From: Vulcanimicrobiota bacterium
Lineage (GTDB): Bacteria; Vulcanimicrobiota; Xenobia; Xenobiales; JADMJV01
Reading direction: 5' to 3'
DNA: 64,000 bases
NCBI GenBank assembly: GCA_050250895.1
Contig: JBFWNU010000001.1
Span: 2,406,210-2,470,209, forward strand
A program made the translations under genes and the position numbers. Of this stretch, positions 16,378 to 64,000 are shown one piece after another; the stretch's first letter is position 1, and every line of letters begins with the position of its first letter. Under the pieces are notes generated by a model. That model had not been told where the DNA came from, searched no databases, and was given only the letters and a program-made list of their open reading frames with translations.

Positions 16378-16418
16378 GGCGCCGCGACTTCGCGACCTGC
16401 TATGGACGACCCCTGCCC

Positions 16419-21555: not shown

Positions 21556-21597
21556 AAGCCCGAGCAACCCTGACAGGGCTCGAACAAGCCCTCGCAG

Positions 21598-21739: not shown

Positions 21740-22330
21740 GTTTGCCGCTTGCGATGTGCTGTGCCTGAACGACTACAACGGTGCGTGGCCCAACGAGTCG
21801 AACTTTGGCGGACGCCGCTGGTATGCCGCGATGGACACCCCGGGACACAACACAGTCTTGCTAGGATTCACGGCCCAGACAGGTGCAACTCTTACAACTT
21901 CTGAGGTCATCGAACGCTACGGGAAATGGATTGACGACTATATTGCGGCGGGCGAAACGGCAGGAGAAAGATTCAGGCGCTGGCCTGGGTTAGGGCGAAC
22001 CTCGAGGTTGGTCTCAACCTTCAACCCGACGGCTCAACGGGCCCTGTGGATGCACTAAGAAGCCTGCAACTTCGCGCTTGCGCTTATGCAGCCGACAGCA
22101 CGGGAGAGTATTTCTACTACATCCCTGTGAAACACGAGCCTACCAAAGACCTGGACCTGATTCTCCAGAATGTGGAGACTACTCCGAGAGTCAAGACCGC
22201 CGAGGGCATCTATAGAGTGAGCCGCGAACATTGGGGTGACCCGGTCCTTTTCGACCTTAGGAGGCCCAAAGATGCGCAACTTGTACTCGAGGTGGTGCGA
22301 TACGACGATGGGACGGTGGAATTGCGATGA
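21740..22330 (+). pseudogene. 3' fragment of a cassette gene-1 copy (duplicate of 19114-19705), frameshifted
   Basis: First ~180 nt identical to 19114 onward, then ~90% identity. A 1-nt deletion (aacggcaggag vs aacggacaggag) splits it into two ORFs (21756..22058, 22046..22330). No 5' part or signal peptide. Confidence 0.7.
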
Positions 22331-24078: not shown

Positions 24079-24227
24079 CAACCTTGCTGATCCTGCAAGC
24101 CCGTTCTTCGGGCCTCGACATCCTGAGTGCGGGATTGCGCAGTCTGGTCGCCCGGCGCGAGATGGCCCTGCTCCTTTAGGATTCTCGGATTTGACAATCC
24201 GGCCGAACGCCGGGCTGCACGATGCCC

Positions 24228-24243
24228 GGTGATCGGTGTCACG
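24228..24243. promoter_or_regulatory. second copy of CRP/FNR-like site ggtgatcggtgtcacg
   Basis: Identical 16-mer to 16419-16434, within a ~30-nt conserved block (cccggtgatcggtgtcacgcggcaaaa). Confidence 0.4.
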
Positions 24244-24412
24244 CGGCAAAATGAGTAGCGCCAGCTACATGTCGTAGCCTGATTGTTCTTTCGGTTTGCA
24301 AGTCGCATCTTCTGGTAGTTTGAGGGGTGGCAAAAGTTTGAAAAATAGTAAATAGAGGTTTGGTGGGGGGGGTAAAGAAGCACTGGGTTCGAGCAATCCT
24401 TGGGGAGGTGGT

Positions 24413-27341
24413 CTTGGTTCGAGCGTCTTGGAGTCGATCCGCCGTGTTAGGTTTCTTGGCTGGCTGGTTTGCCATAGGCCTTGTCGCTTGCGAGAGTTCG
24501 AGGGTGCTCGACCAAGTGGAAACACCCGCACCAGGTCGAACACCTCGAACAGGGGCCGAGTCCTGGCCGAGTTGGCCCTCAGGACCGACGAGGGAGAGTT
24601 CAAAGTCGTGAAAGGCGCCGGCAAGGTTGCCCTGGAGAAGCAGCCGCGCGAGGAGAAAGTCGCGACCAGGGGCGTGTTGGACAACCCGGGCTATTCTTTC
24701 TTCGGGCACCGGCAATACGGCGACTTCGAGTTTTTTCGCCTCGACGAGGACAACCCGGTAGGCTATCTTCCTTACTCCAGCAGCGATGCGGTTTCGAGCC
24801 GGCTGCCAGGGATTTCCGGCGGCGGCTACCGATATCGCATGATGGGATTCGTTAGCCTGGGCGTGAGCGGCGATCCTCATGTACCCGGCCAATCTTCGGT
24901 CGAACTGGTCGTCTCGACACCCGACGGCATCGATGAGGTCGAGGTGCCGACCCTCGATGGCGACACGGTCACGGTGGCTCCGCCCATTACCCTGCGCCGG
25001 GTTCAAACCGTGACCAGCACCGGTGGAGTGGTGTCTCAGCGGGTCGAGACCTTCGTCAACGGAGTCTCGCTCGGGGTCGACTCGTCGAGTTATCTGGAAA
25101 TTGGGTTGAAAATTCCGTCGGTGTCCGGCGACTACCAGGTGAGCACTCACGGCCAGCGCTCGATCAACTATGACGAGCCGGTCAACGATAGCTACGATCT
25201 GGCCTGGACCATCCCGGTTCGCAAACTGCAGTTGGCCGAGAGCCTGGGGCCGGTCGAGGCGACCCCGGGACAGCCCATCATCATCAGCAATCGCATCACC
25301 TGGGACAGTCCGGGCGAGGTTGTGGATGCCAAATGGACTGTGACCCTCAGTGATGTCTTCGACGAGAACTATGAATTCTACGAGGGCACAGGAGAGATGT
25401 CTCGGCCACCTTTGACACCTCGAGTTTTCAGGCCAGAGGGACGACGCCGCGACGTTACCTGCTGATTCCCGCCGGTAGCTCGCTGGTGGACATGCTCAAG
25501 GCCAAGCAGGCCGAACTTCTTGCTCGGGGCGAAGACATCCGGGCCCAGACCGACCTGGTTCCTTTGGTCTACGAAATCTTCGCCAGCGCCGAAGCCTTCC
25601 CGCAGCAGGAAGTCTTCCCGAACTCTGGGGTGCAATTCTATCAGGCTCGCTACTTTCTGCTCAGCGAGTCGCAGGCCGAGCCGGCCATCCGCATTCGCGA
25701 TCTGAGCGTCGACCCCAATCCCTTCGAGCCCAGCCCGGTGGCCCCCGAGGACCGTCAGGTGGCGACGATCTCGGCCTATGTCGACGCGGTGGGCTTCGAC
25801 GGCGGCTATGTGGTGGTCGAGCCTCGCATTTACGACCAATCGGGAAACCTGGTGCGAAGGTTCGAAGACCAGTATCCCATCGACTACTTTGAGCTGGAGT
25901 GGGACGGTTATGACGATGAGGGCAATCGGGTCGAGCCTCAGGAGATCACGATTCAACTGAGTGCCCACGTCTGTGACTTCGCGGGCCTGGCTCGTGAGAT
26001 CGCGGCAAAGTTATCGCCTGAGATCTTAGCACAGGGTTGTTCCCTCCCGTCAGACGCCTTTCTGGTGGCTCAAGTTGGAACGCCACTAAATGGTGTGATT
26101 CAGGTACGTTCTGGAACTAACCTGGTTGCTCAAAGCTTTCATGGTACTCCGAGTTCGGCCGATCTGGCCAGGTTGAGAACAGTCTTTCCCGACGGGCGCA
26201 ACGGCGTCAACAACACGTTAGAGATATCCGCTTCCGGGTTCACCGGGAATCCGCCATCGAGCATTGAGATTGTTCTCGAAGGGTCTGCGAGCAGCACTTC
26301 ATCGGCCCCTATGATTCTAAATCAGGCCAACAACTATACCACAAGTTTTACGCTGACACCTGGCCTGATCAGAACCGGCCAGCTTGGCCCTAGCATCACG
26401 TTTTCGGACTCGGTGTTGAGCGTGACGGGCGGAGCGCAGCTGTTGTTCGAAGGGTCGCTCATGGGAAGCGGCGTTCCGTATCCGGGCCCAGACCCGACCT
26501 CTTTGGGAACCTACAAGGATGGGTCCTCGGCCTCAGAGGCAGAAAATACCGCGAGCAACGTTTCCAGCCTGGGGTATGAAACCGTAGAGATTAGAGGGAC
26601 GGCGGTTCATTTTCAAGCATTGCAAGGCTTAAGGTGAGACACCCGTCCGAGGTCTTTTACTTCGTGCAACATGGATCCGGAACCGGAGAGATCGATTTGG
26701 GGGGTAACCAATCCTTGAACCCGGGTCAGAATATTACCCGTTCGGATTGCACCTCTTTGAAAACTCTGATATTCACAGCCTGTCGGGGCTTGGTGCTCAA
26801 TGATTATAACAATCTATATGAAAACCATCGCCCATTCGCGGATATGGCGACCCGAAGGCAATTGGACTTCGGGGGTCCCAAATGGTACAACATCACAGGT
26901 GCATCCGACGCGTTTGCCCCGTTTTCCCCAACCGAACGGAGGACAGTGCTTCTGGGATTCAACCACGTTGCACCCGCTAAGCTGGCCGCGGATATTCTCG
27001 ATGTCTATCGACTTGCCTTGGGAGATTTGCGAGGAAAGATTAACCAGGGCGACCTAACTGTCAAGAATCTTGAACCGCTGGCCTGGATGAAGGCCAACCT
27101 AGCGGTTCTCCAGGGCGCGAGTGGCTCAGAACTGGCGAGAGGCTTGTGCCTGAACGCGTGCGCTTACGATACTGAGTATTACTATTATATACCGTTTGAT
27201 CGATTCGACCCGACCGAAGACCCGTTTCGTTCAACGCGCGAGGTTCATCGTGTTCCGCGTGGAGACTGGAACACAGATCTCACTCGAGTTGAGTGGATTA
27301 CGACGCCGAAGCGGGTCGGCAGGATGGTTACCATACCGTAG
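24413..27341 (+). pseudogene. cassette C gene 1: large lipoprotein homolog of 16604..19705, disrupted by at least three frameshifts
   Basis: Signal peptide/lipobox frame (VLGFLAGWFAIGLVAC) differs from the body frame (24428..25465). A 1-nt deletion near 25395 (gagatgtctcggccacc vs gaccgacatttcggccacc). A -1 shift at 26634/26637. The three ORFs together are ~55-70% identical to copy A. Confidence 0.6.
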
Positions 27342-27349
27342 GAGGATAC

Positions 27350-29212
27350 GTGCAAGGATTGAGATTGATTTTGATAATTCTCTTACTCTCCATCTCAGCT
27401 ATTGCTCAGCATGTAGGTGACTACCAGGAATTTGTGGCCACGCCGGAGTTTCTGGAGGCTGACCGCCTGGCGGGATTAGGTCAATTGGATGAAGCGCTCA
27501 CGATTTTTGAGAATATCGCGACACAGAACCCCCGTACGACTTTAGGCGCTCGAAGTCTTCTCGCGGCGATAGCTTTGAGAACGAGCCGCGCCAATAATGA
27601 CCGTTTGATCAACCGACTAATTACGGAGTTCAGTGGCTCCCGCTACGAGATCATCGGCAAACTCGTCCAGACGGCCGCTGGATTTACCGATGATGATGAA
27701 GCGCGCATAGCCGCACAAGATGCATTGGCTCAGAGTTTTGGAGGGCCCGGACTCTCCTCGATTCTCAACTCCGAAGACCGGAACACTCTTGTAGCAGAAT
27801 TGCGCGCGCTACCGTTTGAGACTCGCATGGGGTTAGCGCCTGTCTATTACTCTAACTTTGGAGGTCTTCGCGGCCTCGGTAGAGTCGATGACGCCATCAG
27901 TCTCGCGAGGTTCAATCAGGATGCTTATGCTGATGTAGAGGAAACCCTCGAGCACTCATTTAGAGGAGATCTACGTTATGCTCTCATGGTCAAGCAATAT
28001 GGGGGAGGCGTCTCAATAGAAGCACAACCGTCGTCAGACCCGGTGGTCGTGCCGACTTCGCCCAGCCCAAACCAAGTGCTGACAAGCCTTTCGACGCTTG
28101 ATTTCTCGATAAACGGGGGGGATTTTCGTCAACCGGGTGTGGACTTAAACAGCCTCGTCGTGACTCTGGATGGTGAGCCGCTTACAAGTTTGTCATTCCG
28201 CTTTGAGAGTGGGATTCTCGCTGAGAATGAAGTTTACGAGCGCCTTCTCGTCTCGCTGACTGTCCCGGACCTGTCACCTGGCCAGCATCAGGTGACGGTC
28301 AAAGCCAGCGTCAGGGGATACCCTGGGACAGGAGCCGGAACCACCACAGCCTCTTGGAGCTTCGAAATAGCCAGCGCCCAATCCACCCAGACTCTACCAG
28401 TCACGAAAGACTCCACCCTCCGCCTACGCGACCAACATCTCAACGAGGGAGCCAACCCGCGGCTCATCCTGGAGAAGATCCAGGGCAAGACCACTCACGC
28501 CCTGGTGGGCTTTGACCTGTCCCAACAGAATTTGACCGGCCTGACTTCGGCCAGCCTGGTCCTCACCGTCGACCCCAGCGACTCTCCCACCGGCTGGGGC
28601 AACGGGCGTAACGTCCTCGCGGCTCCGATTTCCACCGGCTGGCTGGAGGGGAACGGCGTCGACTTCGGCGTGCCCAACGCGCAGAAGACCAGCGGGTCCG
28701 GCCCGGGCGTGACCTGGTTCAGTCCTGTCGATGAAGACATCAGCAACAACTATGCCAACTCGGCCGTGAATTGGAACGGGGCCGGTGCGGCCAGTGGGCC
28801 ACAGACCGCCTTGCCGGTGCAGCTCCACAACCATCAGGCCGGAGAGGTCTCGTTTGATGTCACCCAGGATATCCTCAGCGGGTCCTCCAGCTGGTTGGTG
28901 AGACGAGAGGACGAGAATGTCGGCTCGCAGGTCCACTTCTACTCCAAGGAAGGCGGCGGAGCCTCAGCCGGCCCGCGCCTGGTCCTTCACTACGGCGCCT
29001 CGGCCAACAAACCCGCAAAAGACGCTCTGTTGGCCAGGGCCTGGGACACCCCGGTCGCGGTCCTTCGCAATCTCGCCGGGCTCGGGCTGTCGGGTGGCCC
29101 GATGACAAATTTGCTGATGAGCACCCTGCAAGCCCGATCGTCGGGCCTCGACGTCCTGAGTGCGGGGTTGCGCAGTCTGGTCGCCCGCCGCGAGATGGCC
29201 CTGCTCCTCTAG
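27350..29212 (+). CDS. cassette C gene 2: secreted protein with distinct helical N-terminal region and DNRLRE-like C-terminal domain
   Basis: GTG start after AGGAGG. Signal peptide VQGLRLILIILLLSISAIAQ. C-terminal ~280 aa nearly identical at nucleotide level to copies A and B (STLRLRDQHLNEGANPRLIL...LVGFDLS...). Confidence 0.65.
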   Translation: MQGLRLILIILLLSISAIAQHVGDYQEFVATPEFLEADRLAGLGQLDEALTIFENIATQNPRTTLGARSLLAAIALRTSRANNDRLINRLITEFSGSRYEIIGKLVQTAAGFTDDDEARIAAQDALAQSFGGPGLSSILNSEDRNTLVAELRALPFETRMGLAPVYYSNFGGLRGLGRVDDAISLARFNQDAYADVEETLEHSFRGDLRYALMVKQYGGGVSIEAQPSSDPVVVPTSPSPNQVLTSLSTLDFSINGGDFRQPGVDLNSLVVTLDGEPLTSLSFRFESGILAENEVYERLLVSLTVPDLSPGQHQVTVKASVRGYPGTGAGTTTASWSFEIASAQSTQTLPVTKDSTLRLRDQHLNEGANPRLILEKIQGKTTHALVGFDLSQQNLTGLTSASLVLTVDPSDSPTGWGNGRNVLAAPISTGWLEGNGVDFGVPNAQKTSGSGPGVTWFSPVDEDISNNYANSAVNWNGAGAASGPQTALPVQLHNHQAGEVSFDVTQDILSGSSSWLVRREDENVGSQVHFYSKEGGGASAGPRLVLHYGASANKPAKDALLARAWDTPVAVLRNLAGLGLSGGPMTNLLMSTLQARSSGLDVLSAGLRSLVARREMALLL

Positions 29213-29265
29213 AAGCCCGAGCAACCCTGACAGGGCTCGAACAAGCCCTCGCAGAACCGTTTCAA

Positions 29266-29574
29266 ATGGCACTCAAAGCCGTTCCGCCTCGCATGGATGC
29301 CCAGGGGCGCCCTTACTTCCTCTGGTCTGAGGACCTCTCCGACGAGATGTTCCGCTCCATCCTGCGCGGCGACCGCGGCCCCGAGCTTCAGGCCCTCTAC
29401 ACTGGAAGGCTGCTGCGGGAAGCCAGAATGGCCGAAGTCTGGTGGTACCTCAAACCTCAGGATATAGCCGACCGCTGGCCTGAGGTGGCGCGTCATCTCG
29501 GCCGGGCTCGCCAGTTCTGGCATGAGCTACTGGAGGCCTGGCGTGAAGCCGGACGCGTTTCCTGGCAACCTTAG
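29266..29574 (+). CDS. small protein, putative partner/antitoxin of the downstream AbiEii-family nucleotidyltransferase
   Basis: 102-aa ORF overlapping the downstream NTase gene by ~50 nt. A disrupted copy sits behind cassette A. Function inferred only from gene context. Confidence 0.45.
   Translation: MALKAVPPRMDAQGRPYFLWSEDLSDEMFRSILRGDRGPELQALYTGRLLREARMAEVWWYLKPQDIADRWPEVARHLGRARQFWHELLEAWREAGRVSWQP

Positions 29575-41155: not shown

Positions 41156-41157
<2 letters not shown>
41127..41157. terminator. bidirectional rho-independent terminator hairpin between the saccharopine-DH gene (+) and tRNA-fMet (-)
   Basis: gaaagcccttc-tttt-ggaagggctttc is a perfect 11-bp stem, T-rich on both flanks. 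Confidence 0.6.
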
Positions 41158-41232
<75 letters not shown>

Positions 41233-55697: not shown

Positions 55698-55752
55698 TTT
55701 CAGGCTGCCGTCTTAGATTAGGACCGTGGTCATCAAGGCGGGTTATACACCC

Positions 55753-57672
55753 ATGCGGTTCGCCCCCGCTCACGCCGCTCCGTCCACCACGGTGCAACAG
55801 TTGAGCCATGGCCAGAGCGTGCCCGAACACCCGCGGCTGCTGCAGGGGCTCAAGCGGATGGCCAGCGTGCTGGGCGACGCCAACCAGGCGTGTGGCTACC
55901 TCGACCAGATTCTAGAAAGTTCGACCCAGCCCGAGCAAACGGTGGACCGCTACGTCGACCTGCTCAAGGTCAGCGACGCCCGCGACCCCAGGACCCTGGC
56001 CACCGTGTTGTTGGCCCTCGAGCATCGGGCTAATCCAGATGGGGTCAAAGCCTTTCGAACCTTGCTCAAGGGCAGCGAACTGCCCGTGGCCGACGCCTAC
56101 ACCCACCACTGCTGGCTGGAAGAGACCTATGACCAGCAGGCCCGCGACCGGGCCCTGAAGCTGAGCGTCAAAGTGGCCGACATGGCCCCCACCAGCAGTC
56201 TCAAGCCGGCCGTCGAATGGCTGATGGCCCAGCCAGAGCCCGAGCGGGCTATCGCCGAGTTGGTGCGGCTGGGCAAGCTGGGCCTGACCTTCGACCAGGC
56301 CCTGGGCGACCTGCAAGCCGTGGGTGAGCCGACCAGGAAGGATTATGCGGTGCTCGAGCAGATTCGCCGGGAAGTGCCCACGGAGGACAGCTCGGTTCGC
56401 CAGGCCGTGAGCCTGCTGCGAGACAACCAGGCTTTGACCCCCACCTACTTGCGGCTGCTCGACTATCAAGATTCGGCCCTCGAGGCCAATACCGTACTGA
56501 CCACGCTATGCCACTATCCCGAGGCCGACCCCGGCCCGCTGCTCGAACTGCTGGCCGACGCCAGTCCCCGCCAGCGGCGCGAAGTCTATGAAGCGTTCGT
56601 CTCGGTGGCCCAGTTGCCGCAGCCCGCCTCGAAGGGGTGGTTGCTCGACAAGTTGGGCTTCGGCATCAGCAATGAAGAGGCTTTTCGCGACCTGACCCGG
56701 ATGCACCAGTCGCCCCAGATGGCTCTCGAGGACCTCAAGGTGCTGACCTCGGATCCGGCTCAAAGCTTGGGCGACGGACTGGGGCTTCTCAAAGACCTCT
56801 ACATGGTCGACCAGCCCGACTCGGCCTCTTGCGCTCGCGAGGCCTTTGCCTATCTGCGCCAGGCTGACAACCGTAAGCATCTGGGTCTGGTCAAGAAGAT
56901 GGCTAGCGACCTGAGCAGCCTCAGACTGGCGGCCCGGGCGGTAGAGGGGCTCACCGCCGACAAGCCCGCCCGCTCGGCCCTACGCGACCGCCTCGATGCC
57001 TTTTATGCTCGCCTGCAGAGCAGTTCTTCGCCGGGCGCAGCCGTCAACTGGACCCTGGCCGAGGGGCGCTGCCTGGCGGCCGGGTTCACCTCCGAACAGT
57101 TCGAGCGACTGGCCCGCAAGGGCAGCGGCGACTTCCTCATGGTGCTGGCCGAGGGGGCGGCCAACCTGGGCAAACTGCTGGGCGACCAGCGCGAAGGCCT
57201 GGCCGAAGTGCTGGGTCTGTGCACCAACCCATCCCAATTGAACTCGGTCACCAGCTATCTCGAGGCCGGGGCCGGGCCGTTGCGGCTCAAGATCGTCGAC
57301 CGCCTCAGCCGAGCCTTCGGCAGCCTGGACAAGGCCCTCGAAGATTGTAGCAGTCTGGCCACGCGGTTTGACGGTAAGAATGAAGTGGCCGATGCCTATT
57401 CCCAGCTGGCCACCGTCCTGCCGGCGGGGTCGCGCGATAAGCTGCGCGAGCATCTGGAGTGGGCCGTCTCGCAAAACGAGAAACCTCGTTACAAGCGCAT
57501 CCCTCCCGAACGATTCCTGATGGAGCTTGGGAAGGCACTGTTGCTCGACCCCGATACCGAAAAGGCCCGCCAGATCGTGATGAGCGCACTCGAGCCTGAA
57601 CTTGGCCTGATCGACGAAGAAGACTATCTGGTGGTGGGAGATTTCATGGTGGAGAAACACAATGAGCGTTAG
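55753..57672 (+). CDS. large hypothetical helical protein
   Basis: About 640 aa, Leu/Ala/Glu-rich, no recognisable motif. Coupled to the three downstream small membrane paralogs. Confidence 0.5.
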   Translation: MRFAPAHAAPSTTVQQLSHGQSVPEHPRLLQGLKRMASVLGDANQACGYLDQILESSTQPEQTVDRYVDLLKVSDARDPRTLATVLLALEHRANPDGVKAFRTLLKGSELPVADAYTHHCWLEETYDQQARDRALKLSVKVADMAPTSSLKPAVEWLMAQPEPERAIAELVRLGKLGLTFDQALGDLQAVGEPTRKDYAVLEQIRREVPTEDSSVRQAVSLLRDNQALTPTYLRLLDYQDSALEANTVLTTLCHYPEADPGPLLELLADASPRQRREVYEAFVSVAQLPQPASKGWLLDKLGFGISNEEAFRDLTRMHQSPQMALEDLKVLTSDPAQSLGDGLGLLKDLYMVDQPDSASCAREAFAYLRQADNRKHLGLVKKMASDLSSLRLAARAVEGLTADKPARSALRDRLDAFYARLQSSSSPGAAVNWTLAEGRCLAAGFTSEQFERLARKGSGDFLMVLAEGAANLGKLLGDQREGLAEVLGLCTNPSQLNSVTSYLEAGAGPLRLKIVDRLSRAFGSLDKALEDCSSLATRFDGKNEVADAYSQLATVLPAGSRDKLREHLEWAVSQNEKPRYKRIPPERFLMELGKALLLDPDTEKARQIVMSALEPELGLIDEEDYLVVGDFMVEKHNER

Positions 57673-58078
57673 AACGGACCACCTGCTGCCGTTTCAGAAG
57701 CAGGCTCTGACCCGCCGCCTGGGAGCGGGGTCCGAACTGGGGTTGGCTTCGGTGACCACCTATGCCGCCCACGGGCCGGCCATCGGCTCGGCTCTGGGTC
57801 TGGACACCTTCAGCCCCACTCCGTTTCAGGTGGGCTCGGGCCTGATGGCCTGCGTCTATGGAGTGCGAGGGGTGGCCTCGCTGGTCAATGCACCTCGCTA
57901 CGAGACCAAATCGCAAACCAACTTTCGTCGTCTGCTGGCTGGAGCCGACCTGGTCACCTGCTTCGGTCTAGCCGCCCAAGCTTTCGGAGGAGGAACCTGG
58001 GCTACGGCCGTGTCGGCCGGCGGCCTGGTGACCACCTCTGCCCTGCATCTCTGGCATACCTATCGGGAGGAACTATGA
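57662..58078 (+). CDS. small membrane protein, paralog 1 of 3
   Basis: 138 aa; shares GVRG...GLAAQAFGGGTWATAVSAGGLVTTSALHLW architecture with the next two ORFs. Confidence 0.45.
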   Translation: MSVRTDHLLPFQKQALTRRLGAGSELGLASVTTYAAHGPAIGSALGLDTFSPTPFQVGSGLMACVYGVRGVASLVNAPRYETKSQTNFRRLLAGADLVTCFGLAAQAFGGGTWATAVSAGGLVTTSALHLWHTYREEL

Positions 58079-58458
58079 ATATCAACGGATCTTACAGTCA
58101 GCGGAGGCGAGAGGGCGTCGTGCGCTCTTTGCCCACCGTGGCCATGGCGGCCGCCGACAGCTATGTCGGTGCGGCCATGGCCTTCGATTCGTTTGGCTAT
58201 GGCGCGTCCGGCGCCCCGGGCGTGATGCAGTTCGCCAGCGGCGGACTGGCCGCCGTGCACGGAGTGCGAGCCGCTCGCAAGCTCTATGTTGCCTACAACG
58301 AGAGCGACAAACTCGAGCAACGCCGGGCCCAGACCCAGGCCATCGGGCATCTGGCCATCACCGCCGGCTTCATCTGCCTGGCCTCGGGAATGGGGGCCAC
58401 CGCCCTCCCGCTGCTGGCTCTGGGTGAAGCCACCAACCTCTACGCCACCTTTTCTTAG
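58075..58458 (+). CDS. small membrane protein, paralog 2 of 3
   Basis: ATGA overlap; AAVHGVRAARKLYVAY...HLAITAGFICLASGMGATALPLLALGEATNLY. Confidence 0.45.
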   Translation: MNINGSYSQRRREGVVRSLPTVAMAAADSYVGAAMAFDSFGYGASGAPGVMQFASGGLAAVHGVRAARKLYVAYNESDKLEQRRAQTQAIGHLAITAGFICLASGMGATALPLLALGEATNLYATFS

Positions 58459-58470
58459 GAGTTCGCGACC

Positions 58471-58884
58471 ATGAAGATCAGTAATCCTTTCAAAAGCCAC
58501 GCCCGCCCCGGTTCTTTCTCGGAAGCGGTCAAATCCCAGCAGATGAAGGTGGCCGGAAATCTGGCCGTGGCCGGGGCCGATGCCTACGTCGGGGCCCTGG
58601 GCATTCTCAAGCCCGAGGCGGGTTATGCTCCCGTCATGGCCGGCTGGATGGCGGCCGGACACGCCGCCTACGGCATCTATCGAGCCTGGCCTTTCGGCAC
58701 CGACCGCTCGGGCGACCCGATTCTGGTCGACAAAGCCCCCAAAGATTTGGCCGTCGGGGTGGGTCACCTCATCACCGCGGCGGGCCTGGCCGGTATGGCC
58801 GCGGGGGCCGGTCCGGTTGCCGTTCCGGTCATTGCCCTGGGCCAGTTGACGGCCCTGGGCGGAGAATACCTCACCAAAGATTGA
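58471..58884 (+). CDS. small membrane protein, paralog 3 of 3
   Basis: AAGHAAYGIYRAW...HLITAAGLAGMAAGAGPVAVPVIALGQLTALGGEYL. Confidence 0.45.
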   Translation: MKISNPFKSHARPGSFSEAVKSQQMKVAGNLAVAGADAYVGALGILKPEAGYAPVMAGWMAAGHAAYGIYRAWPFGTDRSGDPILVDKAPKDLAVGVGHLITAAGLAGMAAGAGPVAVPVIALGQLTALGGEYLTKD

Positions 58885-59795
58885 ATTTCGTCCCCGGTGG
58901 GAATCAGGGTCAGGTGAGACATCTGGCCCTTTTTCTTCTCCTGTGCAGCGGTCTGGCCTGGGCCGAGCCCGGCAACCGCACTCTGCTCACCACGGCGTGG
59001 GGAGAGGTCTTCTGCGACGGTAGCCTCGAGGTGACCTCGAAGACGCCCGGCCGCTTCACGGTGGTGACCCCTTCGGGACCGATCAACGTGGTGGCCGATG
59101 GCTCGGAAGTGCTCATCCAGTATCCCGACCAGGCTTTGCGGGTTCGTCAGAGCGAGACCAACGAAGGTCACCAGGTGCTGGTGCAGTTTCAGAACAAGAA
59201 TTATCGCATCATCCACCAGAACCGCCAGGTCAAATGGGCCTTCCCGGATGATGAAGCGTTCTTTCGCCTGCGGGCCGGCAAGGTCTATGACGTTTTGGGC
59301 AGTCAGGGCTTTCTGCGCATTCGCCGTCAGGGCGCTCCGGGCAACTACCGGGTCAGCAGCGACATCGGCGAGTCTCACTTCGAGGTGGCCCCAACCGGGG
59401 TCACCACCCACGAAGGCGAGCCGCCCGAGGCTCATCCCTATCTCACCCGCGGAGTCATCTTCAAGGAGGGTCCGGTGGGGCTGGCCGTCTATCTACCCCA
59501 GGGCAACCTGACCGGCGCCCTCAGTTGGACCGGGGCCCGTCGCTACGAGGTTCCCTTGCCCGAGCCCAAACAGCCTGCGGCCAAGCCCGAAGAGCCGGTG
59601 GACCCGCTCAAGGCCAACGACCCCGAGTGGGACAGTCCGGTGCTCAAGTCCACCCCGGTCAATGCCAGCGAAGATCCGATGAAGCTCAAGACCCAGCCCG
59701 TGCCCTATCCCACCCGCGAGGACCTACTCAAGGCCAAGACCAGCACCGAGCCCGACCTGCTCGAGGTCAAGGTCACCACCGACGAAGACGAATAG
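58881..59795 (+). CDS. secreted hypothetical protein
   Basis: Signal peptide ...VRHLALFLLLCSGLAWA|EP. TTG at 58881 or GTG at 58914 as start. Pro/Glu-rich C-terminus. Confidence 0.5.
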   Translation: MNFVPGGNQGQVRHLALFLLLCSGLAWAEPGNRTLLTTAWGEVFCDGSLEVTSKTPGRFTVVTPSGPINVVADGSEVLIQYPDQALRVRQSETNEGHQVLVQFQNKNYRIIHQNRQVKWAFPDDEAFFRLRAGKVYDVLGSQGFLRIRRQGAPGNYRVSSDIGESHFEVAPTGVTTHEGEPPEAHPYLTRGVIFKEGPVGLAVYLPQGNLTGALSWTGARRYEVPLPEPKQPAAKPEEPVDPLKANDPEWDSPVLKSTPVNASEDPMKLKTQPVPYPTREDLLKAKTSTEPDLLEVKVTTDEDE

Positions 59796-59816: not shown

Positions 59817-62204
59817 TTGGAAGTGTTGGCGATGCCCAGCAGCCGTCGGTCCGGTGACTTTCGTTTCGGCACCAAGGCCGCGACCCTCGAGCGCCTGCGT
59901 CCTCTGGTCGACTTCATGCGGATTGCCCCGCTGGTGGCCTTCAGCCTGCAAGAGTGGAGGTCGGATTCGCAAGCCTGTCTGGGGCGGGTCGCCGGGTTGG
60001 GACCGGTCTCGCTGGTGGTGCGCAGTTCGGCCATCGGCGAAGATAGCCACGAGCAATCCATGGCGGGTGCCTATCTGTCGCTGCTCGATATCGACGGCGC
60101 CAGTCCGGATCGGGTAAGGGAGGCCATCGAGCAAGTCTTTGCGTCCTACCGAGGCAACCCCCTCGACCAGGTGCTGGTGCAGCCGATGGTCAGCCCGGTC
60201 TTGGTCAGCGGCGTGATCACCACCTTTTCGGTCGACGACGGAGCCCCCTATCTGGTCATCAACTACGATGACGATAGCGGGCGCACCGACCGCATCACCG
60301 GAGGCAAAGGGGCCCACAAGAGCGTGTGGGTCTATCGCAAAGCGGGTCGTAAAGCCTTCGAGTCCGAGCGGGTCGCTCGCTGGGTGCGCCTGTCGCTTCG
60401 CCTCGAGCGCCTCTGCGGCGACAAGCCGCTAGACATCGAGTTTGGCGAGACCCCCGACGGAGAATTCCATCTGTTTCAAGTGCGGCCGCTGGCCACCGCG
60501 GGCCGCTGGTCCAGCCCGGTGACCCTGGCCGCTTCTCGCTGCCAGCCCGAACTGGTGCAAGCGGTGCGGCGCCTCTCGCAGCGGCTGCCGGGCGTGCTGG
60601 GTCGGACCACCATCTGGGGCGCCATGGCCGACTGGAACCCGGCCGAGATGATCGGACCCTTGCCCCGGCCACTGGCCGCCTCGCTTTATCGCCACCTGAT
60701 TACCGACTCGACCTGGAGACTGGCCCGCGCCCGCATGGGGTATCGCCACCCCGGCGGTCAGCCGCTGATGGTGTTGCTGGCCGGTCGGCCCTTCATCGAC
60801 ATCCGAGCCAGCTTCAATTCGTTTCTGCCCGCAACGCTCGGGGCCGGACCGGGTTTTCGCCTGGTCGAGGCCTGGCTGGACAGGCTGGCCCATCATCCCG
60901 AGTTCCACGACAAAGTCGAGTTTGAAGTGGCCCTCACGTGCCGCGATTTCAAGTTCGCCCAGACCGTCGAAGAGCGCTATCCCGGGGTTTTGTCGCCCCA
61001 AGAACTGGGGCTTTGGGAACACGGCTTGACCGACCTCACTCGCCAGGCACTGGCGGCCGGGGGCACCCTGGAGCAAGCCCTGCGGCTGGTGCGGGCTCGG
61101 CGGCCGGCACTTCGACCGTCGTTAGGTCCCCTCCAGGCCGCCTGGTGTCTGTTCGAGCGCTGTCGGCGTAGCGGCACGTTGCCCTTCGCCATCGTGGCCC
61201 GCCACGCATTCATCGCCGAGGCCCTGTTGCGCTCGGCCGTGCAACGGGGCGCTCTCGAGCCCGAGCGCCTGTCGTTGTTCCGCCAGTCGGTCCCCACCGT
61301 GGCTCGCCAGTTCACCACTCAGCTGCGCGAGGTCAGCCTGGGCCAGAGGCCGGCGGAGGCTTTCTTCGCCGAATTTGGCCATCTGCGCCCCGGCACCTAC
61401 GAGATCATGTCGCGCCGCTACGACCAGAGCGAAGACCTTTTCCAGGGAGGCCTGGACACTCTGGCCCCGGCCCCTCATCAGGTTTTCGAGCTGCAACCCA
61501 CCGAAGAGAAGAGCCTGGCCCTCTTGCTGGCCGAGGCCAGGCTCGACACCACTCCGGCCCGACTGCTGGACTACGCGGCCCAGGCCATCGCCGGTCGCGA
61601 AGAAGCCAAGTTTCTTTTCACCCGCGACCTGTCCGATGGGCTCGAGCAACTGGCCCGCTGGGGTCAAACCCGCCAGCTTACGCGCGAGCAGGTTTCTTAT
61701 CTCGAGGTGGCGGATATCCTGGATGAGCGCTTTGCTCCCCACCTGCAAGACCCGTCTGGCTATTGGAGCGAGCGCAGCCAGCTCGGCCTGGAGAAGATGC
61801 GGCTGCACCGCTGTGTGCACCTGTCTTATCTCCTGCGCAGCTGGCGCGATGTGCTGGTGGCTCCGGCCCATCGGGCCGTGCCCAACTTCATCACCGACCA
61901 GCGGGTCGAAGCCGAGGGGGTGGCGCTGGATGCGGCTACCTCGGGTACGGCCATCCCCGACCTGTTCGGACGACTGGCCCTGATCGAACAGGCCGATCCC
62001 GGCTTTGACTGGGTCTTCACTCGCGGCATCGCCGGGCTCGTCACCCAGTATGGCGGACCCAACTCGCACATGGCCGTTCGCTGCGCCGAGTTGAGCCTGC
62101 CGGCCGCCATCGGCTGTGGCGAGAATCTCTTCGGCCGCCTGCGCCGGGCCCGCAGGATCGAGTTGAATTGCCTCGAGCGGGTGGTTCGACCCGTGCTCGA
62201 ATAG
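59817..62204 (+). CDS. PEP-utilising-enzyme family protein with rifampin-phosphotransferase-like architecture (N-terminal ATP-grasp/PPDK_N, C-terminal His swivel domain)
   Basis: N-terminus GTKAATLERL...VVRSSAIGED (PPDK_N/ATP-grasp). C-terminal mobile-domain motif VTQYGGPNSHMAVRCAELSLPAAIGC (phospho-His). No PEP/pyruvate TIM-barrel domain between them. Confidence 0.7.
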   Translation: MEVLAMPSSRRSGDFRFGTKAATLERLRPLVDFMRIAPLVAFSLQEWRSDSQACLGRVAGLGPVSLVVRSSAIGEDSHEQSMAGAYLSLLDIDGASPDRVREAIEQVFASYRGNPLDQVLVQPMVSPVLVSGVITTFSVDDGAPYLVINYDDDSGRTDRITGGKGAHKSVWVYRKAGRKAFESERVARWVRLSLRLERLCGDKPLDIEFGETPDGEFHLFQVRPLATAGRWSSPVTLAASRCQPELVQAVRRLSQRLPGVLGRTTIWGAMADWNPAEMIGPLPRPLAASLYRHLITDSTWRLARARMGYRHPGGQPLMVLLAGRPFIDIRASFNSFLPATLGAGPGFRLVEAWLDRLAHHPEFHDKVEFEVALTCRDFKFAQTVEERYPGVLSPQELGLWEHGLTDLTRQALAAGGTLEQALRLVRARRPALRPSLGPLQAAWCLFERCRRSGTLPFAIVARHAFIAEALLRSAVQRGALEPERLSLFRQSVPTVARQFTTQLREVSLGQRPAEAFFAEFGHLRPGTYEIMSRRYDQSEDLFQGGLDTLAPAPHQVFELQPTEEKSLALLLAEARLDTTPARLLDYAAQAIAGREEAKFLFTRDLSDGLEQLARWGQTRQLTREQVSYLEVADILDERFAPHLQDPSGYWSERSQLGLEKMRLHRCVHLSYLLRSWRDVLVAPAHRAVPNFITDQRVEAEGVALDAATSGTAIPDLFGRLALIEQADPGFDWVFTRGIAGLVTQYGGPNSHMAVRCAELSLPAAIGCGENLFGRLRRARRIELNCLERVVRPVLE

Positions 62205-62250
62205 CCAGGCCAGGAGAGATCGCCCTGACCTCGAACCCCACGAACTGCAC

Positions 62251-62943
62251 ATGGTCGACGTCTCCGTCTGCATGGCGGCATACAACGAAGAGGACAACAT
62301 CCTGGAGGCCGTCGAGGAGATGGTGGCTACCATGGACTCGTTCTCGGGCAGCTACGAGATCGTCATCATCGACGACGGTAGCACCGACAACACTCCCGCC
62401 CTGGCCGACCAGCTGGCCCACCGTTTCGCCCACGTGCGCGTCATCCACCACCCCACCAACCTGGGTCTGGGCGGCTATTACCGCACCGCTTTTGCCGAGT
62501 CGCGAGGGTGGGCCACGACCTTCTTTCCCACCGACGGGCAATTCCCCACCGACATCGTGCCCACGTTCTTCCAGCGGCTCCACGAGCTGGACTTGCTCTG
62601 CAGCTATATCACCAAGGTCAACGAAGGCCCGATGCGCCAACTGGTGACCGTCTGTGAGCGGCTCATCTATCGATTGTTGTTTGGACCCCTGCCCCGCATG
62701 CAGGGCATCATGATGGTGCGCACCGAGGCCCTGCGGCAATTGACCTTTCGCTCCCAGGGGCGGGATTGGACCATTCTCTTCGAGTTGCTGGTGCTGGGCA
62801 CGCGAGCCGGCTGGAGGATCGACTCGGTCCCCATCGACTATTATCCGCGCCGTTCGGGCCACTCCAAGGTGATGAACTTTCGCACCGCCCTGCTGAATTT
62901 GCTGGGCATCCTGCGACTCTGGTGGATCCTCTTGCGACCATGA
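62251..62943 (+). CDS. family 2 glycosyltransferase (DPM1-like)
   Basis: VSVCMAAYNEEDNI, IVIIDDGSTDNT (DxD); 230 aa. Confidence 0.8.
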   Translation: MVDVSVCMAAYNEEDNILEAVEEMVATMDSFSGSYEIVIIDDGSTDNTPALADQLAHRFAHVRVIHHPTNLGLGGYYRTAFAESRGWATTFFPTDGQFPTDIVPTFFQRLHELDLLCSYITKVNEGPMRQLVTVCERLIYRLLFGPLPRMQGIMMVRTEALRQLTFRSQGRDWTILFELLVLGTRAGWRIDSVPIDYYPRRSGHSKVMNFRTALLNLLGILRLWWILLRP

Positions 62944-62958
62944 CGAGGATCCGCTGAC

Positions 62959-63468
62959 ATGGTCTTCTGGATCACCGGCCTGTCGGGCGCCGGCAAATCG
63001 ACCCTGGCCCGAGCCTGGTGCGCCTTCCTGCGAGAGCATCACGACTGTCTGCCGGTCTTGCTCGACGGTGACGAGATCCGGGCGGTGGTGGCCGACCCGG
63101 CCGCCGGCCACGACCGCCCTGGCCGGCTGCGCAACGCTTTTCGCCTGGCCCGCCTGGCCCATCTGTTAGAGAGCCAGGGCCACACGGTGGTGGTGGCCAC
63201 CATGTCGCTTTTTCACGAGATCCACGACTGGAATCGCCGCGAACTCAAGGGCTATCTCGAAGTGCTCCTCCAGGTAAGCCCCGAAGTGCTGGCCCGCCGC
63301 CACCAGCAAAACCTCTATGACGGCAGCCACTCGAACGTGGTCGGGGTGGACCTTCCCGCCGAAGAGCCCAAAGAGCCGCACCTGGTTCTCGACAATAACC
63401 CCGAGCGCGAAGACCTGGCCCCTTTGCTCGCTCAAATTCAAGCGGCCTGGCAGGTGATGACCCCATGA
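62959..63468 (+). CDS. cysC: adenylyl-sulfate (APS) kinase
   Basis: P-loop VFWITGLSGAGKSTLA and LDGDEIR motifs characteristic of CysC. Confidence 0.8.
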   Translation: MVFWITGLSGAGKSTLARAWCAFLREHHDCLPVLLDGDEIRAVVADPAAGHDRPGRLRNAFRLARLAHLLESQGHTVVVATMSLFHEIHDWNRRELKGYLEVLLQVSPEVLARRHQQNLYDGSHSNVVGVDLPAEEPKEPHLVLDNNPEREDLAPLLAQIQAAWQVMTP

Positions 63469-64000
63469 AGCCCATCTTTCTCAACGCCATGTCGCGCAAC
63501 GGGCACTCGCTGCTCTACCAGTTGCTGGCCGACCACCCCCAGCTGTCCTTTCTGCCCGGGCGCATCCACTTTGCCTGCCGAGAGCCCCGGGGCTTTCCAC
63601 TGACTGGGCCGGTGACCGATCTGGTCGAGCAGCTGCTGGCCCGTCACACGGTCGACATCGGCGAGCAGTACCAAGACTACCAGTCGATTCCTATTACCGA
63701 CTTCGCTCGCTTTCCCCAGGCTGAATTCCGCCGACGGGCTCGAGCCTCGGGCGACCTCAAAGAGCAGTTCCACGCCTATCTGCGGGCTCTCTTCGAGGTC
63801 TTTGAGCAGACCCCGCGAGAGTATACCCTGATCCAGGATGACCACATGTACGCCCTGGGCCTCGAGATGGTGTTGCCTGTTTTTCCTGAAGCGCGCTTTC
63901 TGCAGCCCATTCGCTCGGGCTTTGACGTGGTGGCCTCGAAAAAGAACCTGATGCTGTTTCATCTGGGCCACCGGGGCGACTCCCGGTCGATGGAACTCAC
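63465..64000 (+). CDS. putative PAPS-dependent sulfotransferase (3' end beyond window)
   Basis: ATGA overlap with cysC. N-terminal FLNAMSRNGHSLL occupies the position of the 5'-PSB loop of sulfotransferases. Call rests mainly on gene context. Confidence 0.45.
   Translation, partial: MKPIFLNAMSRNGHSLLYQLLADHPQLSFLPGRIHFACREPRGFPLTGPVTDLVEQLLARHTVDIGEQYQDYQSIPITDFARFPQAEFRRRARASGDLKEQFHAYLRALFEVFEQTPREYTLIQDDHMYALGLEMVLPVFPEARFLQPIRSGFDVVASKKNLMLFHLGHRGDSRSMEL

What the first reader, a model, noticed from the sequence alone, without database searches (positions are those of the whole stretch)
59817..64000. Tailoring-enzyme cluster: rifampin-phosphotransferase-like PEP-utilising enzyme + GT2 + APS kinase + sulfotransferase
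The 795-aa protein has an N-terminal ATP-grasp/PPDK_N region and a C-terminal swivelling phospho-His domain (GGPNSHMAVRCAELSLPAAIG) but no PEP/pyruvate-binding domain. That is the architecture of small-molecule dikinases such as rifampin phosphotransferase. It is followed on the same strand by a DPM1-like glycosyltransferase, CysC (PAPS supply) and a probable sulfotransferase that overlaps cysC by 4 nt. Together they suggest phosphorylation, glycosylation and sulfation of a glycolipid, polysaccharide or secondary metabolite, with a dedicated PAPS source.
Basis: partly seen in the sequence, partly recalled or inferred. Interest (0 to 1): 0.55.

Follow-up and report, generated by a model that had tools for sequence, protein, structure and literature searches.

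The report
Phosphoramidate-type sugar-decoration cassette, not sulfation
The four genes are real, but the two "kinases" belong to the pathway Campylobacter uses to build a rare phosphorus-nitrogen (phosphoramidate) decoration on surface sugars, so this is probably a new variant of that pathway, in a little-studied phylum, rather than a sulfation cluster.

Summary
The interpretation needs correcting.

- **Large protein.** It matches NCBIfam NF004508/PRK05849 end to end (808 bits). This is the Cj1418-type L-glutamine kinase family. Its fold does resemble rifampin phosphotransferase.
- **"CysC".** It falls in the PRK05541 subfamily and fails the apsK equivalog cutoff. It lacks both adenine-stacking Phe residues of APS kinases. 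Its relatives sit beside glutamine kinase or are fused to it (16 fusions in 80 metagenome loci). It therefore looks like Cj1415, the cytidine diphosphoramidate 3'-kinase.
- **"Sulfotransferase".** It belongs to a tiny subfamily. All three relatives whose context I could read lie within or next to glutamine-kinase module genes.
- **Beyond the window.** The cassette ends with a WbmS-type deacetylase, then a convergent acs gene. There is no cysDN.
- **Selection.** A sister lineage keeps the same five genes, with dN/dS of 0.06–0.17.
- **Main gap.** The Cj1417 and Cj1416 homologues that flank the kinase in about 70 of 80 loci are absent from the 64 kb and the 2.4 kb beyond.

Best reading (about 0.5): a variant phosphoramidate glycan-decoration cassette in which a sulfotransferase-fold enzyme uses the PAPS-like donor.

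The parts
59832..62204 (+). Cj1418-type L-glutamine kinase homologue, 790 aa (an alternative TTG start at 59817 gives 795 aa). It has an N-terminal ATP-grasp/PPDK_N domain, a helical central domain and a C-terminal phospho-His swivel domain (GGPNSHMA).
   Evidence: NCBIfam NF004508/PRK05849: 808.5 bits, profile positions 5-787 of 789, cutoff 501. Pfam: PPDK_N and PEP-utilizers, no PEP-utilizers_C. Five of the 120 listed homologues are named 'glutamine kinase' by JGI. It keeps 63/63 invariant and 148/149 >=90%-conserved family columns. The AF2 model has pLDDT 87.7, and its best PDB fold match is rifampin phosphotransferase, E=1e-21.
62251..62943 (+). GT2 polyprenyl-phosphate glycosyltransferase of the DPMS/ArnC/PpgS type, 230 aa, with no transmembrane segment.
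   Evidence: Pfam Glycos_transf_2, 1e-22. Best PDB sequence match is P. furiosus dolichol-phosphate mannose synthase 5MLZ over residues 3-214, followed by ArnC structures. NCBIfam partial hits include PpgS and ArnC. The DXD position reads P-T-D instead of D-A-D, while the Asp and Gln that align with the second Asp and the Gln of DADLQ in DPMS are kept (alignment). dN/dS 0.088 against the sister lineage.
62959..63468 (+). APS-kinase-fold P-loop kinase of the Cj1415 (cytidine diphosphoramidate 3'-kinase) type, 169 aa.
   Evidence: NCBIfam PRK05541: 148.7 bits (cutoff 127). TIGR00455 apsK: 79.2 bits (cutoff 138.7). It is 43-51% identical to kinases that sit in complete glutamine-kinase modules, and 31% identical to E. 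coli CysC. The two Phe that are conserved in APS kinases (GF.. and NFTGI) are His and Val here. Among 80 metagenome loci found with this subgroup, 16 encode kinase::glutamine-kinase fusions, and 18 of 26 long loci carry glutamine kinase.
63465..64000 (+). N-terminal 178 aa of a 366-aa sulfotransferase-fold transferase. The gene continues to window-equivalent position 64565. A WbmS-like deacetylase follows at window-equivalent 64562-65254, outside the window.
   Evidence: Pfam Sulfotransfer_3: 40.3 bits over profile positions 1-216 of 216 for the full protein. Only 21 relatives at E<=1e-10 in 1.84 billion representatives. Subfamily invariants include MSR.G (5'-PSB position) and R150...S158 (3'-phosphate-binding motif). 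For the three closest relatives: two lie beside glutamine kinase itself (L171, L173), and the third lies beside a c6-type methyltransferase on a truncated contig (L172). The downstream gene is PF22537 WbmS-like at 171 bits, and matches PDB 3HFT at 1e-38.

Best explanation
This is a five-gene, co-directional cassette in a Vulcanimicrobiota genome. Four genes are in the window; the fifth lies just beyond it. It most likely decorates a surface glycoconjugate with a phosphoramidate-type group, using chemistry known from the O-methyl-phosphoramidate (MeOPN) pathway of Campylobacter jejuni.

Inferred steps, in order:
1. [quoted passage not shown]
2. A cytidylyltransferase and a gamma-glutamyl hydrolase (Cj1416 and Cj1417 functions) convert this to cytidine diphosphoramidate. 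These two genes are not in the cassette. They must be supplied from elsewhere in the genome or by non-homologous enzymes.
3. The APS-kinase-fold enzyme phosphorylates the 3'-OH of that nucleotide, giving 3'-phospho-cytidine 5'-diphosphoramidate, a structural analogue of PAPS.
4. The sulfotransferase-fold protein keeps the 3'-phosphate-binding Arg/Ser motif. It uses this PAPS-like donor to transfer the phosphoramidate group to a sugar.
5. The acceptor is prepared by the DPMS/ArnC-type GT2, which makes a polyprenyl-phosphate sugar, and by the WbmS-type deacetylase, which removes an N-acyl group.

Shown here: the family assignments, gene order, co-occurrence statistics, fusions and purifying selection. 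Inferred: every substrate, the order of steps and the nature of the acceptor.
For: 1. The large protein is an end-to-end, above-cutoff member of NF004508/PRK05849. Homologues are named glutamine kinase by JGI. It retains essentially all family-conserved residues.
2. In 80 genome loci found with this protein, the neighbours form a fixed module: kinase, Peptidase_C26/GATase, NTP-transferase, APS-kinase-like. The GATase's best NCBIfam hit is NF045546, gamma-glutamyl-CDP-amidate hydrolase, which is Cj1417. Profile HMM counts are 70/80, 71/80 and 60/80 for the three neighbours. Cj1415-Cj1418 together make CDP-phosphoramidate 3'-phosphate (PMC11800397).
3. The window's APS-kinase-like protein is closest (43-51% identity) to kinases in complete modules. 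Its subgroup is fused to glutamine kinase in 16 of 80 metagenome loci. Locus L051 carries a canonical cysDNC set and, separately, a module-linked kinase.
4. The window's sulfotransferase subfamily is tiny. L171 reads kinase-GATase-NTP-transferase-ST-methyltransferase-APS-kinase-like. L173 reads WbmS-like-ST ... APS-kinase-like-methyltransferase-glutamine kinase. L172 reads methyltransferase-ST.
5. Broader ST-like proteins recur next to these modules: 12 of 77 long loci. They never co-occur with the TagF-like Glyphos_transf protein found in 17 of 77.
6. All five genes are kept in order in a sister lineage, with dN/dS 0.06-0.17 at dS 0.4-0.54.
7. There is no cysD or cysN in the window.
Against: - No homologue of the cytidylyltransferase (Cj1416) or the hydrolase (Cj1417) was found in the 64-kb window or in L001, which adds 2.4 kb downstream (HMM search at E<1e-3). 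Yet about 88% of related loci have both adjacent. Without them the known route to the donor is broken.
- No methyltransferase of the module-linked types (c6, c11) is present.
- No enzyme here has been assayed. The C. jejuni sequences themselves could not be fetched, so the link to Cj1415 and Cj1418 rests on NCBIfam, JGI names and module structure.
- Six of 26 long loci with this kinase subgroup lack glutamine kinase within 10 kb, and three of those have an ST-like gene. A sulfation role for some members is therefore not excluded.
- The transferases known genetically in C. jejuni (Cj1421, Cj1422) were not compared.
Confidence: 0.5

Rival explanations
1. This is the first reader's model: genuine sulfation. 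The 169-aa kinase makes PAPS from APS. The sulfotransferase sulfates a GT2-made, deacetylated glycolipid or polysaccharide, for example N-sulfation after deacetylation as in heparan NDST. The large dikinase phosphorylates the same or another small molecule.
For: The Sulfotransfer_3 and APS_kinase Pfam hits are genuine. The Cj1416/Cj1417 genes needed for the phosphoramidate donor are absent from the window. A deacetylase next to a sulfotransferase is a coherent N-sulfation pair. A few loci have this kinase subgroup plus an ST-like gene without glutamine kinase nearby: L148, L168, L126.
Against: The kinase fails the apsK equivalog cutoff and lacks both Phe residues conserved in APS kinases. There is no ATP sulfurylase (cysDN) in the window. 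Its subgroup is fused to glutamine kinase in 16 loci. Of the sulfotransferase's three nearest relatives, two lie beside glutamine kinase and one beside a module-type methyltransferase on a truncated contig. The model leaves a fully conserved glutamine-kinase homologue without a role.
Confidence: 0.2
2. This is a different, so far undescribed N-P or P-O chemistry that bypasses Cj1416 and Cj1417. For example, the WbmS-type amidohydrolase could release phosphoramidate from glutamine phosphate, or expose a sugar amine that is then phosphorylated. The GT-A-fold protein, or an unlinked enzyme, would attach the nucleotide. The cassette would then be self-sufficient.
For: The five genes are kept as a unit under purifying selection without the two missing genes. 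Two other loci (L047, L050) also have the two kinases without the Cj1416/17 homologues within 10 kb. A WbmS-like hydrolase is again adjacent to the ST in L173. The GT2 has an atypical DXD position, P-T-D.
Against: There is no precedent. The GT2 aligns over 212 residues with DPMS and looks like an ordinary polyprenyl-phosphate glycosyltransferase. WbmS-like homologues normally sit in O-antigen loci without glutamine kinase. The L173 contig ends inside glutamine kinase, so it may well carry the missing genes.
Confidence: 0.2
3. This is a decaying remnant of a MeOPN-like module. It lost two genes and no longer functions as a pathway. The neighbouring GT2, sulfotransferase and deacetylase would be unrelated polysaccharide genes.
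For: The two central genes of the canonical module are missing. The cassette is not embedded in a larger polysaccharide locus: upstream are unannotated proteins, downstream is acs.
Against: All five genes are intact and have identical lengths in two lineages. dN/dS is 0.06-0.17 at dS about 0.5. The genes are translationally coupled by 4-nt overlaps. The glutamine kinase keeps 148/149 conserved positions.
Confidence: 0.05

Closest known systems
Campylobacter jejuni MeOPN donor pathway (Cj1418 L-glutamine kinase, Cj1417 hydrolase, Cj1416 cytidylyltransferase, Cj1415 cytidine diphosphoramidate kinase)
   Same: The first and last enzymes have homologues here, at 59832-62204 and 62959-63468, in the same relative order. 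Related loci from many phyla carry all four families in the C. jejuni order.
   Different: The two middle enzymes are missing from the window. A GT2 sits between the two kinases instead. No module-type methyltransferase is present. The presumed transferase has a sulfotransferase fold. The host is Vulcanimicrobiota, not Campylobacter.
Rifampin phosphotransferase (RPH-Lm, PDB 5HV1/5FBS)
   Same: Same three-domain order and overall fold. RPH-Lm is the best Foldseek match, E=1e-21, aligned over roughly 800-900 columns. The same kind of ATP to His to substrate relay is expected.
   Different: Only 14-15% identity. The NCBIfam RPH model gives 30.6 bits against a cutoff of 999. The central substrate domain belongs to a different sequence family.
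PAPS-dependent sulfation systems (CysC/NodQ APS kinase plus Sulfotransfer-family enzymes such as NodH, Stf0, TPST)
   Same: Same two folds, adjacent and translationally coupled. The 3'-phosphate-binding Arg...Ser motif and the 5'-PSB Arg are conserved.
   Different: The kinase is below the apsK cutoff and has no adenine-stacking Phe pair. No ATP sulfurylase is nearby. The 5'-PSB loop reads MSRNGxS rather than PRSGTT. The family is tied to glutamine kinase.
ArnC/ArnD, PpgS and FlmF/NaxD-type pairs (polyprenyl-phosphate HexNAc or Ara4FN synthase plus deacylase) and Bordetella WbmS (PDB 3HFT)
   Same: A DPMS/ArnC-like GT2 and a polysaccharide-deacetylase-type enzyme sit in one operon. The WbmS match is strong, E=1e-38.
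   Different: The deacetylase is WbmS-type, not ArnD/NaxD-type. No GT-C transferase or flippase was recognised nearby. The comparison with these pairs rests on general knowledge and was not tested here.

Membership tests
L-glutamine kinase (Cj1418 type; NCBIfam NF004508/PRK05849; EC 2.7.3.13) | End-to-end match to the family profile above its curated cutoff | tested here: met
   808.5 bits against a cutoff of 501, profile positions 5-787 of 789.
L-glutamine kinase (Cj1418 type; NCBIfam NF004508/PRK05849; EC 2.7.3.13) | ATP-grasp N-domain, central domain, C-terminal phospho-His swivel domain with the catalytic His, and no PEP/pyruvate barrel | tested here: met
   Pfam PPDK_N and PEP-utilizers only. 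The His in GGPNSHMA is invariant in 28 sequences. AF2 model and Foldseek match to RPH.
L-glutamine kinase (Cj1418 type; NCBIfam NF004508/PRK05849; EC 2.7.3.13) | [quoted passage not shown] | not testable with these tools
   Indirect only: 63/63 invariant and 148/149 >=90%-conserved family columns are retained.
Complete MeOPN-type donor module (Cj1415-Cj1418) | Adjacent Cj1417-like GATase/Peptidase_C26 hydrolase and Cj1416-like NTP-transferase | tested here: not met
   Profile HMMs built from 55 and 68 neighbours find them in 70/80 and 71/80 related loci. They find nothing in the window or L001 at E<1e-3. The rest of the genome could not be searched.
Cytidine diphosphoramidate kinase (Cj1415 type; PRK05541 subfamily) | Match to the PRK05541 subfamily above cutoff, and linkage to glutamine kinase | tested here: met
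   148.7 bits against 127. One gene (the GT2) separates it from glutamine kinase in the window. Subgroup relatives are fused to glutamine kinase in 16 of 80 loci and co-located in 18 of 26 long loci. That PRK05541 contains Cj1415 itself is my recollection and was not verified.
APS kinase (CysC; TIGR00455 apsK) | Equivalog-level match to apsK | tested here: not met
   79.2 bits against a cutoff of 138.7. PRK00889 and PRK03846 are also below cutoff. 31% identity to E. coli CysC.
APS kinase (CysC; TIGR00455 apsK) | The two conserved Phe in the GF(S/T)..R and NFTGI motifs. That they sandwich the APS adenine is from memory of APS kinase structures. | tested here: not met
   The window has GHDRPGR and NVVGVD. 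E. coli CysC, A. pernix 2YVU and the L051 CysC have Phe at both positions.
APS kinase (CysC; TIGR00455 apsK) | Neighbouring ATP sulfurylase (cysDN or sat) | tested here: not met
   tblastn with E. coli CysD and CysN finds nothing in the window at 1e-3. A sat-type query was not available.
PAPS-dependent sulfotransferase (Pfam Sulfotransfer_3) | Profile match, plus the 3'-phosphate-binding Arg...Ser and the 5'-PSB basic residue | tested here: met
   40.3 bits against 27, covering the full profile. R11, R150 and S158 are invariant in the subfamily. R15, R161 and S169 (L083 numbering) are invariant across the ST-like proteins of the modules.
PAPS-dependent sulfotransferase (Pfam Sulfotransfer_3) | Uses PAPS and transfers sulfate | not testable with these tools
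   The context argues for a PAPS analogue instead. The AF2 single-sequence model failed with pLDDT 36.
Polyprenyl-phosphate glycosyltransferase (GT2; DPMS/ArnC/GtrB/PpgS) | GT2 catalytic domain aligned with DPMS/ArnC, including the metal-binding D..Q and the R..G.SK region | tested here: met
   Pfam 81.3 bits. 5MLZ aligns to residues 3-214, including D-G-Q and RRSGHSK.
Polyprenyl-phosphate glycosyltransferase (GT2; DPMS/ArnC/GtrB/PpgS) | Canonical DXD (D-A-D) motif | tested here: inconclusive
   The motif reads P-T-D: the first Asp is replaced and the second is kept.
Rifampin phosphotransferase (NF041857) | Equivalog-level sequence match | tested here: not met
   30.6 bits against a cutoff of 999. 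The fold resemblance is real, but the protein is not a member.
WbmS-like polysaccharide deacetylase (PF22537) | Profile match and similarity to Bordetella WbmS | tested here: met
   171.2 bits against 27. PDB 3HFT, E=1.1e-38. The gene lies just outside the window, at L001 14731-15423.

The most novel reading that the evidence does not exclude
Sulfotransferase-fold proteins are the transferases that deliver the phosphoramidate group from 3'-phospho-cytidine 5'-diphosphoramidate in many bacteria and archaea. That would explain why the pathway adds a PAPS-like 3'-phosphate at all. In this reading, the cassette is a compact variant that puts a P-N decoration on a deacetylated, polyprenyl-linked sugar in Vulcanimicrobiota, a phylum where I know of no report of such a modification. 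It may do so by a route that does not use the Cj1416/Cj1417 enzymes.
Probability: 0.35. Interest if true: 0.8.

Novelty: new variant of a known kind. Interest (0 to 1): 0.6.

Why it matters
Phosphoramidate (P-N) decorations of surface glycans are best known from Campylobacter. There they affect serum resistance, epithelial-cell invasion and phage sensitivity. The step that transfers the group to sugar has not been reconstituted in vitro, according to the papers I could read (PMC12409886).

This analysis shows three things:
- The donor module is spread over many bacterial and archaeal lineages.
- The APS-kinase-like enzyme is often physically fused to the glutamine kinase.
- A family of sulfotransferase-fold proteins travels with the module.

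That gives concrete candidate enzymes for the missing transfer step, and a chemical rationale for it: the donor mimics PAPS. It also warns that automatic labels such as "adenylyl-sulfate kinase", "sulfotransferase" and "PEP-utilizing enzyme" can hide P-N chemistry that would otherwise be read as sulfation. For this particular locus, the absence of two canonical genes makes it either a split pathway or a new route. Both are testable.

Tried and rejected
- **C. jejuni sequences and source papers.** I could not fetch Cj1415-Cj1422 directly. The four primary Raushel papers are not held. The link to Cj1415 and Cj1418 is therefore indirect.
- **Exact-sequence look-up.** Looking up the 169-aa kinase found nothing.
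- **Direct search for cassette neighbours.** tblastn of the window's GT2, ST, WbmS-like and upstream proteins against the 80 genome loci gave no specific hits. Only iterated profiles linked the ST to module-associated ST-like proteins.
- **Word-indexed homologue search with the ST.** It returned only a 95%-identical sister. The exhaustive search was needed to find relatives.
- **Reverse-association scan with ST alignments.** I used the kinase subgroup instead.
- **AF2 of the ST without an alignment.** The model was useless, pLDDT 36, so it was not fold-searched.
- **Pfam on neighbours in L047 and L050.** These two other loci lack Cj1416/17 homologues, but the scan gave nothing informative.
- **Literature search for 'WbmS'.** It returned only unrelated acronyms.
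- **Promoter and terminator scan.** Hits were no more frequent than in shuffled sequence.
- **Rfam.** Only one tRNA was found in the window.
- **Rejected readings.** PEP synthase or PPDK (no C-terminal barrel; PPDK is only a weak partial fold match). Rifampin resistance enzyme (score far below cutoff). Ordinary sulfate assimilation (no cysDNH).

Full report
**1. Observation**

- The large ORF runs 59817..62204 from a TTG. An ATG at 59832, preceded by GGAAG, gives a 790-aa product identical to database protein P0001. P0001 is annotated from a Vulcanimicrobiota MAG.
- GT2: 62251..62943. APS-kinase-like: 62959..63468.
- A sulfotransferase-like ORF starts at 63465, overlaps the previous gene by 4 nt and runs off the window.

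Pfam confirms PPDK_N plus PEP-utilizers without PEP-utilizers_C, and also Glycos_transf_2, APS_kinase and Sulfotransfer_3.

**2. Beyond the window**

An identical 18-kb Logan contig (L001; window coordinate = L001 coordinate + 49831) shows what lies downstream.
- The sulfotransferase-like gene is 366 aa.
- It is followed, with another 4-nt overlap, by a 230-aa WbmS-like polysaccharide deacetylase (PF22537, 171 bits).
- A convergent acetyl-CoA synthetase gene then ends the cassette.

There is no cysDNH downstream, and tblastn with E. coli CysD and CysN finds nothing in the window. Upstream on the same strand lie unannotated proteins with no Pfam match, and an unrelated UbiE-type methyltransferase.

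**3. The large protein**

- NCBIfam places it end to end in NF004508/PRK05849: 808.5 bits, cutoff 501.
- PEP synthase, PPDK and rifampin phosphotransferase models match only the two shared end domains, far below their cutoffs.
- Among its 120 listed homologues (44-52% identical, apart from the identical P0001), five carry the JGI name 'glutamine kinase'.
- An AF2 model built on 28 sequences (pLDDT 87.7) has rifampin phosphotransferase as its best PDB fold match over the whole chain (E=1e-21). PPDK is only a weak partial match.

The protein should work like RPH, relaying phosphate from ATP to His to substrate. But it belongs to the Cj1418 L-glutamine kinase family. It keeps 63/63 invariant and 148/149 >=90%-conserved columns of that family, so I see no sign of a changed substrate.

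**4. The conserved module**

Eighty loci from GTDB species genomes, spanning many bacterial phyla and DPANN archaea, were fetched with this protein. Clustering their ORFs gives a fixed core:
- glutamine kinase;
- a roughly 215-aa Peptidase_C26/GATase;
- a roughly 255-aa NTP-transferase;
- a roughly 178-aa APS-kinase-like protein, often with a methyltransferase.

Profile HMMs find the last three in 70, 71 and 60 of the 80 loci. The GATase's best NCBIfam hit is NF045546, gamma-glutamyl-CDP-amidate hydrolase, which is Cj1417. These are the same four families as Cj1418-Cj1417-Cj1416-Cj1415 of C. jejuni, and by gene number they lie in the same order. Together those four enzymes make CDP-phosphoramidate 3'-phosphate from glutamine, ATP and CTP (PMC11800397; PMC6429109).

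**5. The 'CysC'**

- It passes the PRK05541 subfamily cutoff (148.7 against 127) and fails TIGR00455 apsK (79.2 against 138.7).
- It is 43-51% identical to kinases sitting in complete modules, and 31% identical to E. coli CysC.
- In E. coli CysC, A. pernix 2YVU and a canonical CysC in locus L051, the motifs GF(S/T)..R and NFTGI each carry a Phe. As I recall from APS kinase structures, these two Phe sandwich the adenine of APS. In the window protein and the module-linked kinases they are His/Tyr and Val.
- L051 has a canonical cysD-cysN-cysC set and, separately, a module-linked kinase. The two kinds are therefore not redundant.

As a reverse test, I fetched 80 metagenome loci with the window's kinase subgroup.
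- Of 26 loci >=10 kb, 18 carry glutamine kinase.
- Sixteen of the 80 loci encode a single ORF with the kinase domain fused N-terminally to a full glutamine kinase.

This is strong evidence that the subgroup works in the glutamine-kinase pathway, that is, as a Cj1415-type nucleoside diphosphoramidate 3'-kinase.

**6. The 'sulfotransferase'**

The Pfam hit covers the whole profile. The protein is nonetheless nearly an orphan. The word-indexed search found only a 95%-identical sister. An exhaustive HMMER scan of 1.84 billion representatives found 21 relatives at E<=1e-10, all about 360-390 aa.

The subfamily's invariant residues include MSR.G at the 5'-PSB position, a DD(H) motif, and R150...S158 at the 3'-phosphate-binding motif. 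A 3'-phosphonucleotide donor is therefore expected.

I could read the context of the three closest relatives:
- L171: epimerase, glutamine kinase, GATase, NTP-transferase, ST, methyltransferase, APS-kinase-like.
- L172: the contig starts in the module-type methyltransferase, immediately followed by the ST.
- L173: fliD, a GT, an AsnB-like gene, a formyltransferase, WbmS-like, ST, further genes, APS-kinase-like, methyltransferase, glutamine kinase. The contig ends there.

More distant ST-like proteins, related through an iterated profile in which the window's ST scores 211 bits, recur beside the module. In 77 long loci, 12 have an ST-like protein and 17 have a TagF-like Glyphos_transf protein, and none has both. 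The hypergeometric probability of zero overlap is about 0.04, uncorrected for phylogeny. This fits two alternative transferases filling one role.

**7. GT2 and deacetylase**

The GT2 aligns over residues 3-214 with P. furiosus dolichol-phosphate mannose synthase, and then with ArnC. Its DXD position reads P-T-D.

The deacetylase matches Bordetella WbmS (PDB 3HFT, E=1e-38). Homologues of the deacetylase normally sit in O-antigen-type loci with Wzm/Wzt, DegT, AsnB-like and formyltransferase genes, and without glutamine kinase. Both genes are therefore ordinary glycan-building or glycan-editing enzymes. I infer that they prepare the acceptor. The analogy is with ArnC/ArnD- or PpgS-type pairs (general knowledge, not tested here).

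**8. Is the cassette functional?**

A sister lineage from an independent sample (L089) has the same order: glutamine kinase, GT2, kinase, ST, WbmS-like. Gene lengths are identical. dN/dS values are 0.089, 0.088, 0.100, 0.063 and 0.172, at dS 0.40-0.54. A decaying remnant is unlikely.

**9. What does not fit**

The Cj1417- and Cj1416-type genes are absent from the 64-kb window and from L001, which adds 2.4 kb downstream. A GT2 occupies their usual place between the two kinases. Only two other long loci (L047, L050) show the two kinases without them. I could not search the rest of the genome. This is the main weakness of the phosphoramidate reading. It leaves room for a split pathway, a new route, or true sulfation.

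**10. Verdict**

The best explanation (about 0.5) is a variant phosphoramidate-type glycan-decoration cassette in which a sulfotransferase-fold enzyme uses the PAPS-like donor. The rivals are:
- true sulfation (about 0.2);
- an undescribed route that bypasses Cj1416 and Cj1417 (about 0.2);
- a remnant (about 0.05).

I file it as a new variant of a known kind. The library I could search holds no paper linking sulfotransferase-fold proteins to phosphoramidate transfer. This is absence of evidence in a partial library, not proof of novelty.

Noticed in passing
window 16000-29500: This is a lower-GC stretch (0.53-0.60). A roughly 2.6-kb segment is duplicated in tandem (19114-21739 versus 21740-24179, 87-98% identity), and a third partial copy lies at 28404-29401. 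At least the two tandem copies encode paralogous secreted proteins of about 580-620 aa with the same N-terminus (19702-21555 and 22327-24078); the 639-aa ORF at 27293-29212 overlaps the third copy.
   Followed up: partly
window 55726-59795: Five same-strand ORFs lie immediately upstream of the cassette and have no Pfam match. They are a 648-aa protein, three paralogous proteins of about 130 aa (57662-58078, 58075-58458, 58471-58884), and a 304-aa protein with a signal-peptide-like N-terminus ending 36 nt before the kinase ATG. They may be co-transcribed with the cassette.
   Followed up: partly
L099, L101, L104, L109, L110, L113, L120, L144, L151, L170 and six shorter loci: These carry single ORFs of about 925-1090 aa that fuse the APS-kinase-like domain to a full glutamine kinase. 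There are 16 such ORFs among the 80 metagenome loci.
   Followed up: yes
L173 214-13162: A low-GC contig places a WbmS-like gene, the ST subfamily, an APS-kinase-like gene, a methyltransferase and the start of glutamine kinase directly downstream of the flagellar cap gene fliD. This hints at a flagellin-glycan target in that organism.
   Followed up: partly
L002-L081 and L091-L170: In loci that carry glutamine kinase, ST-like proteins (12 loci) and TagF-like Glyphos_transf proteins (17 loci) never occur together among 77 long loci. Other recurrent accessories are a formyltransferase-like protein with a 190-aa unknown, a 405-aa unknown, a sulfatase-like protein and B12-radical-SAM proteins.
   Followed up: partly
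L051 4192-9879 and 14708-15268: One locus holds a canonical cysD-cysN-cysC set and, a few kb away next to glutamine kinase, a second, divergent APS-kinase-fold gene. L099 has a CysN-like gene (48% identical to E. coli CysN) at its contig end, next to a fusion-type module.
   Followed up: partly
L047 and L050: These are two further loci with glutamine kinase and the APS-kinase-like gene but no Cj1416/Cj1417 homologues within 10 kb. Pfam on their neighbours was uninformative.
   Followed up: partly
window 62251-62943: The GT2's DXD position reads P-T-D rather than the D-A-D of DPMS, ArnC and GtrB, while the following Asp and Gln are kept.
   Followed up: no
window 41156-41232 (-): A tRNA-Met (CAT) gene is the only Rfam or ARAGORN hit in the window.
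   Followed up: no
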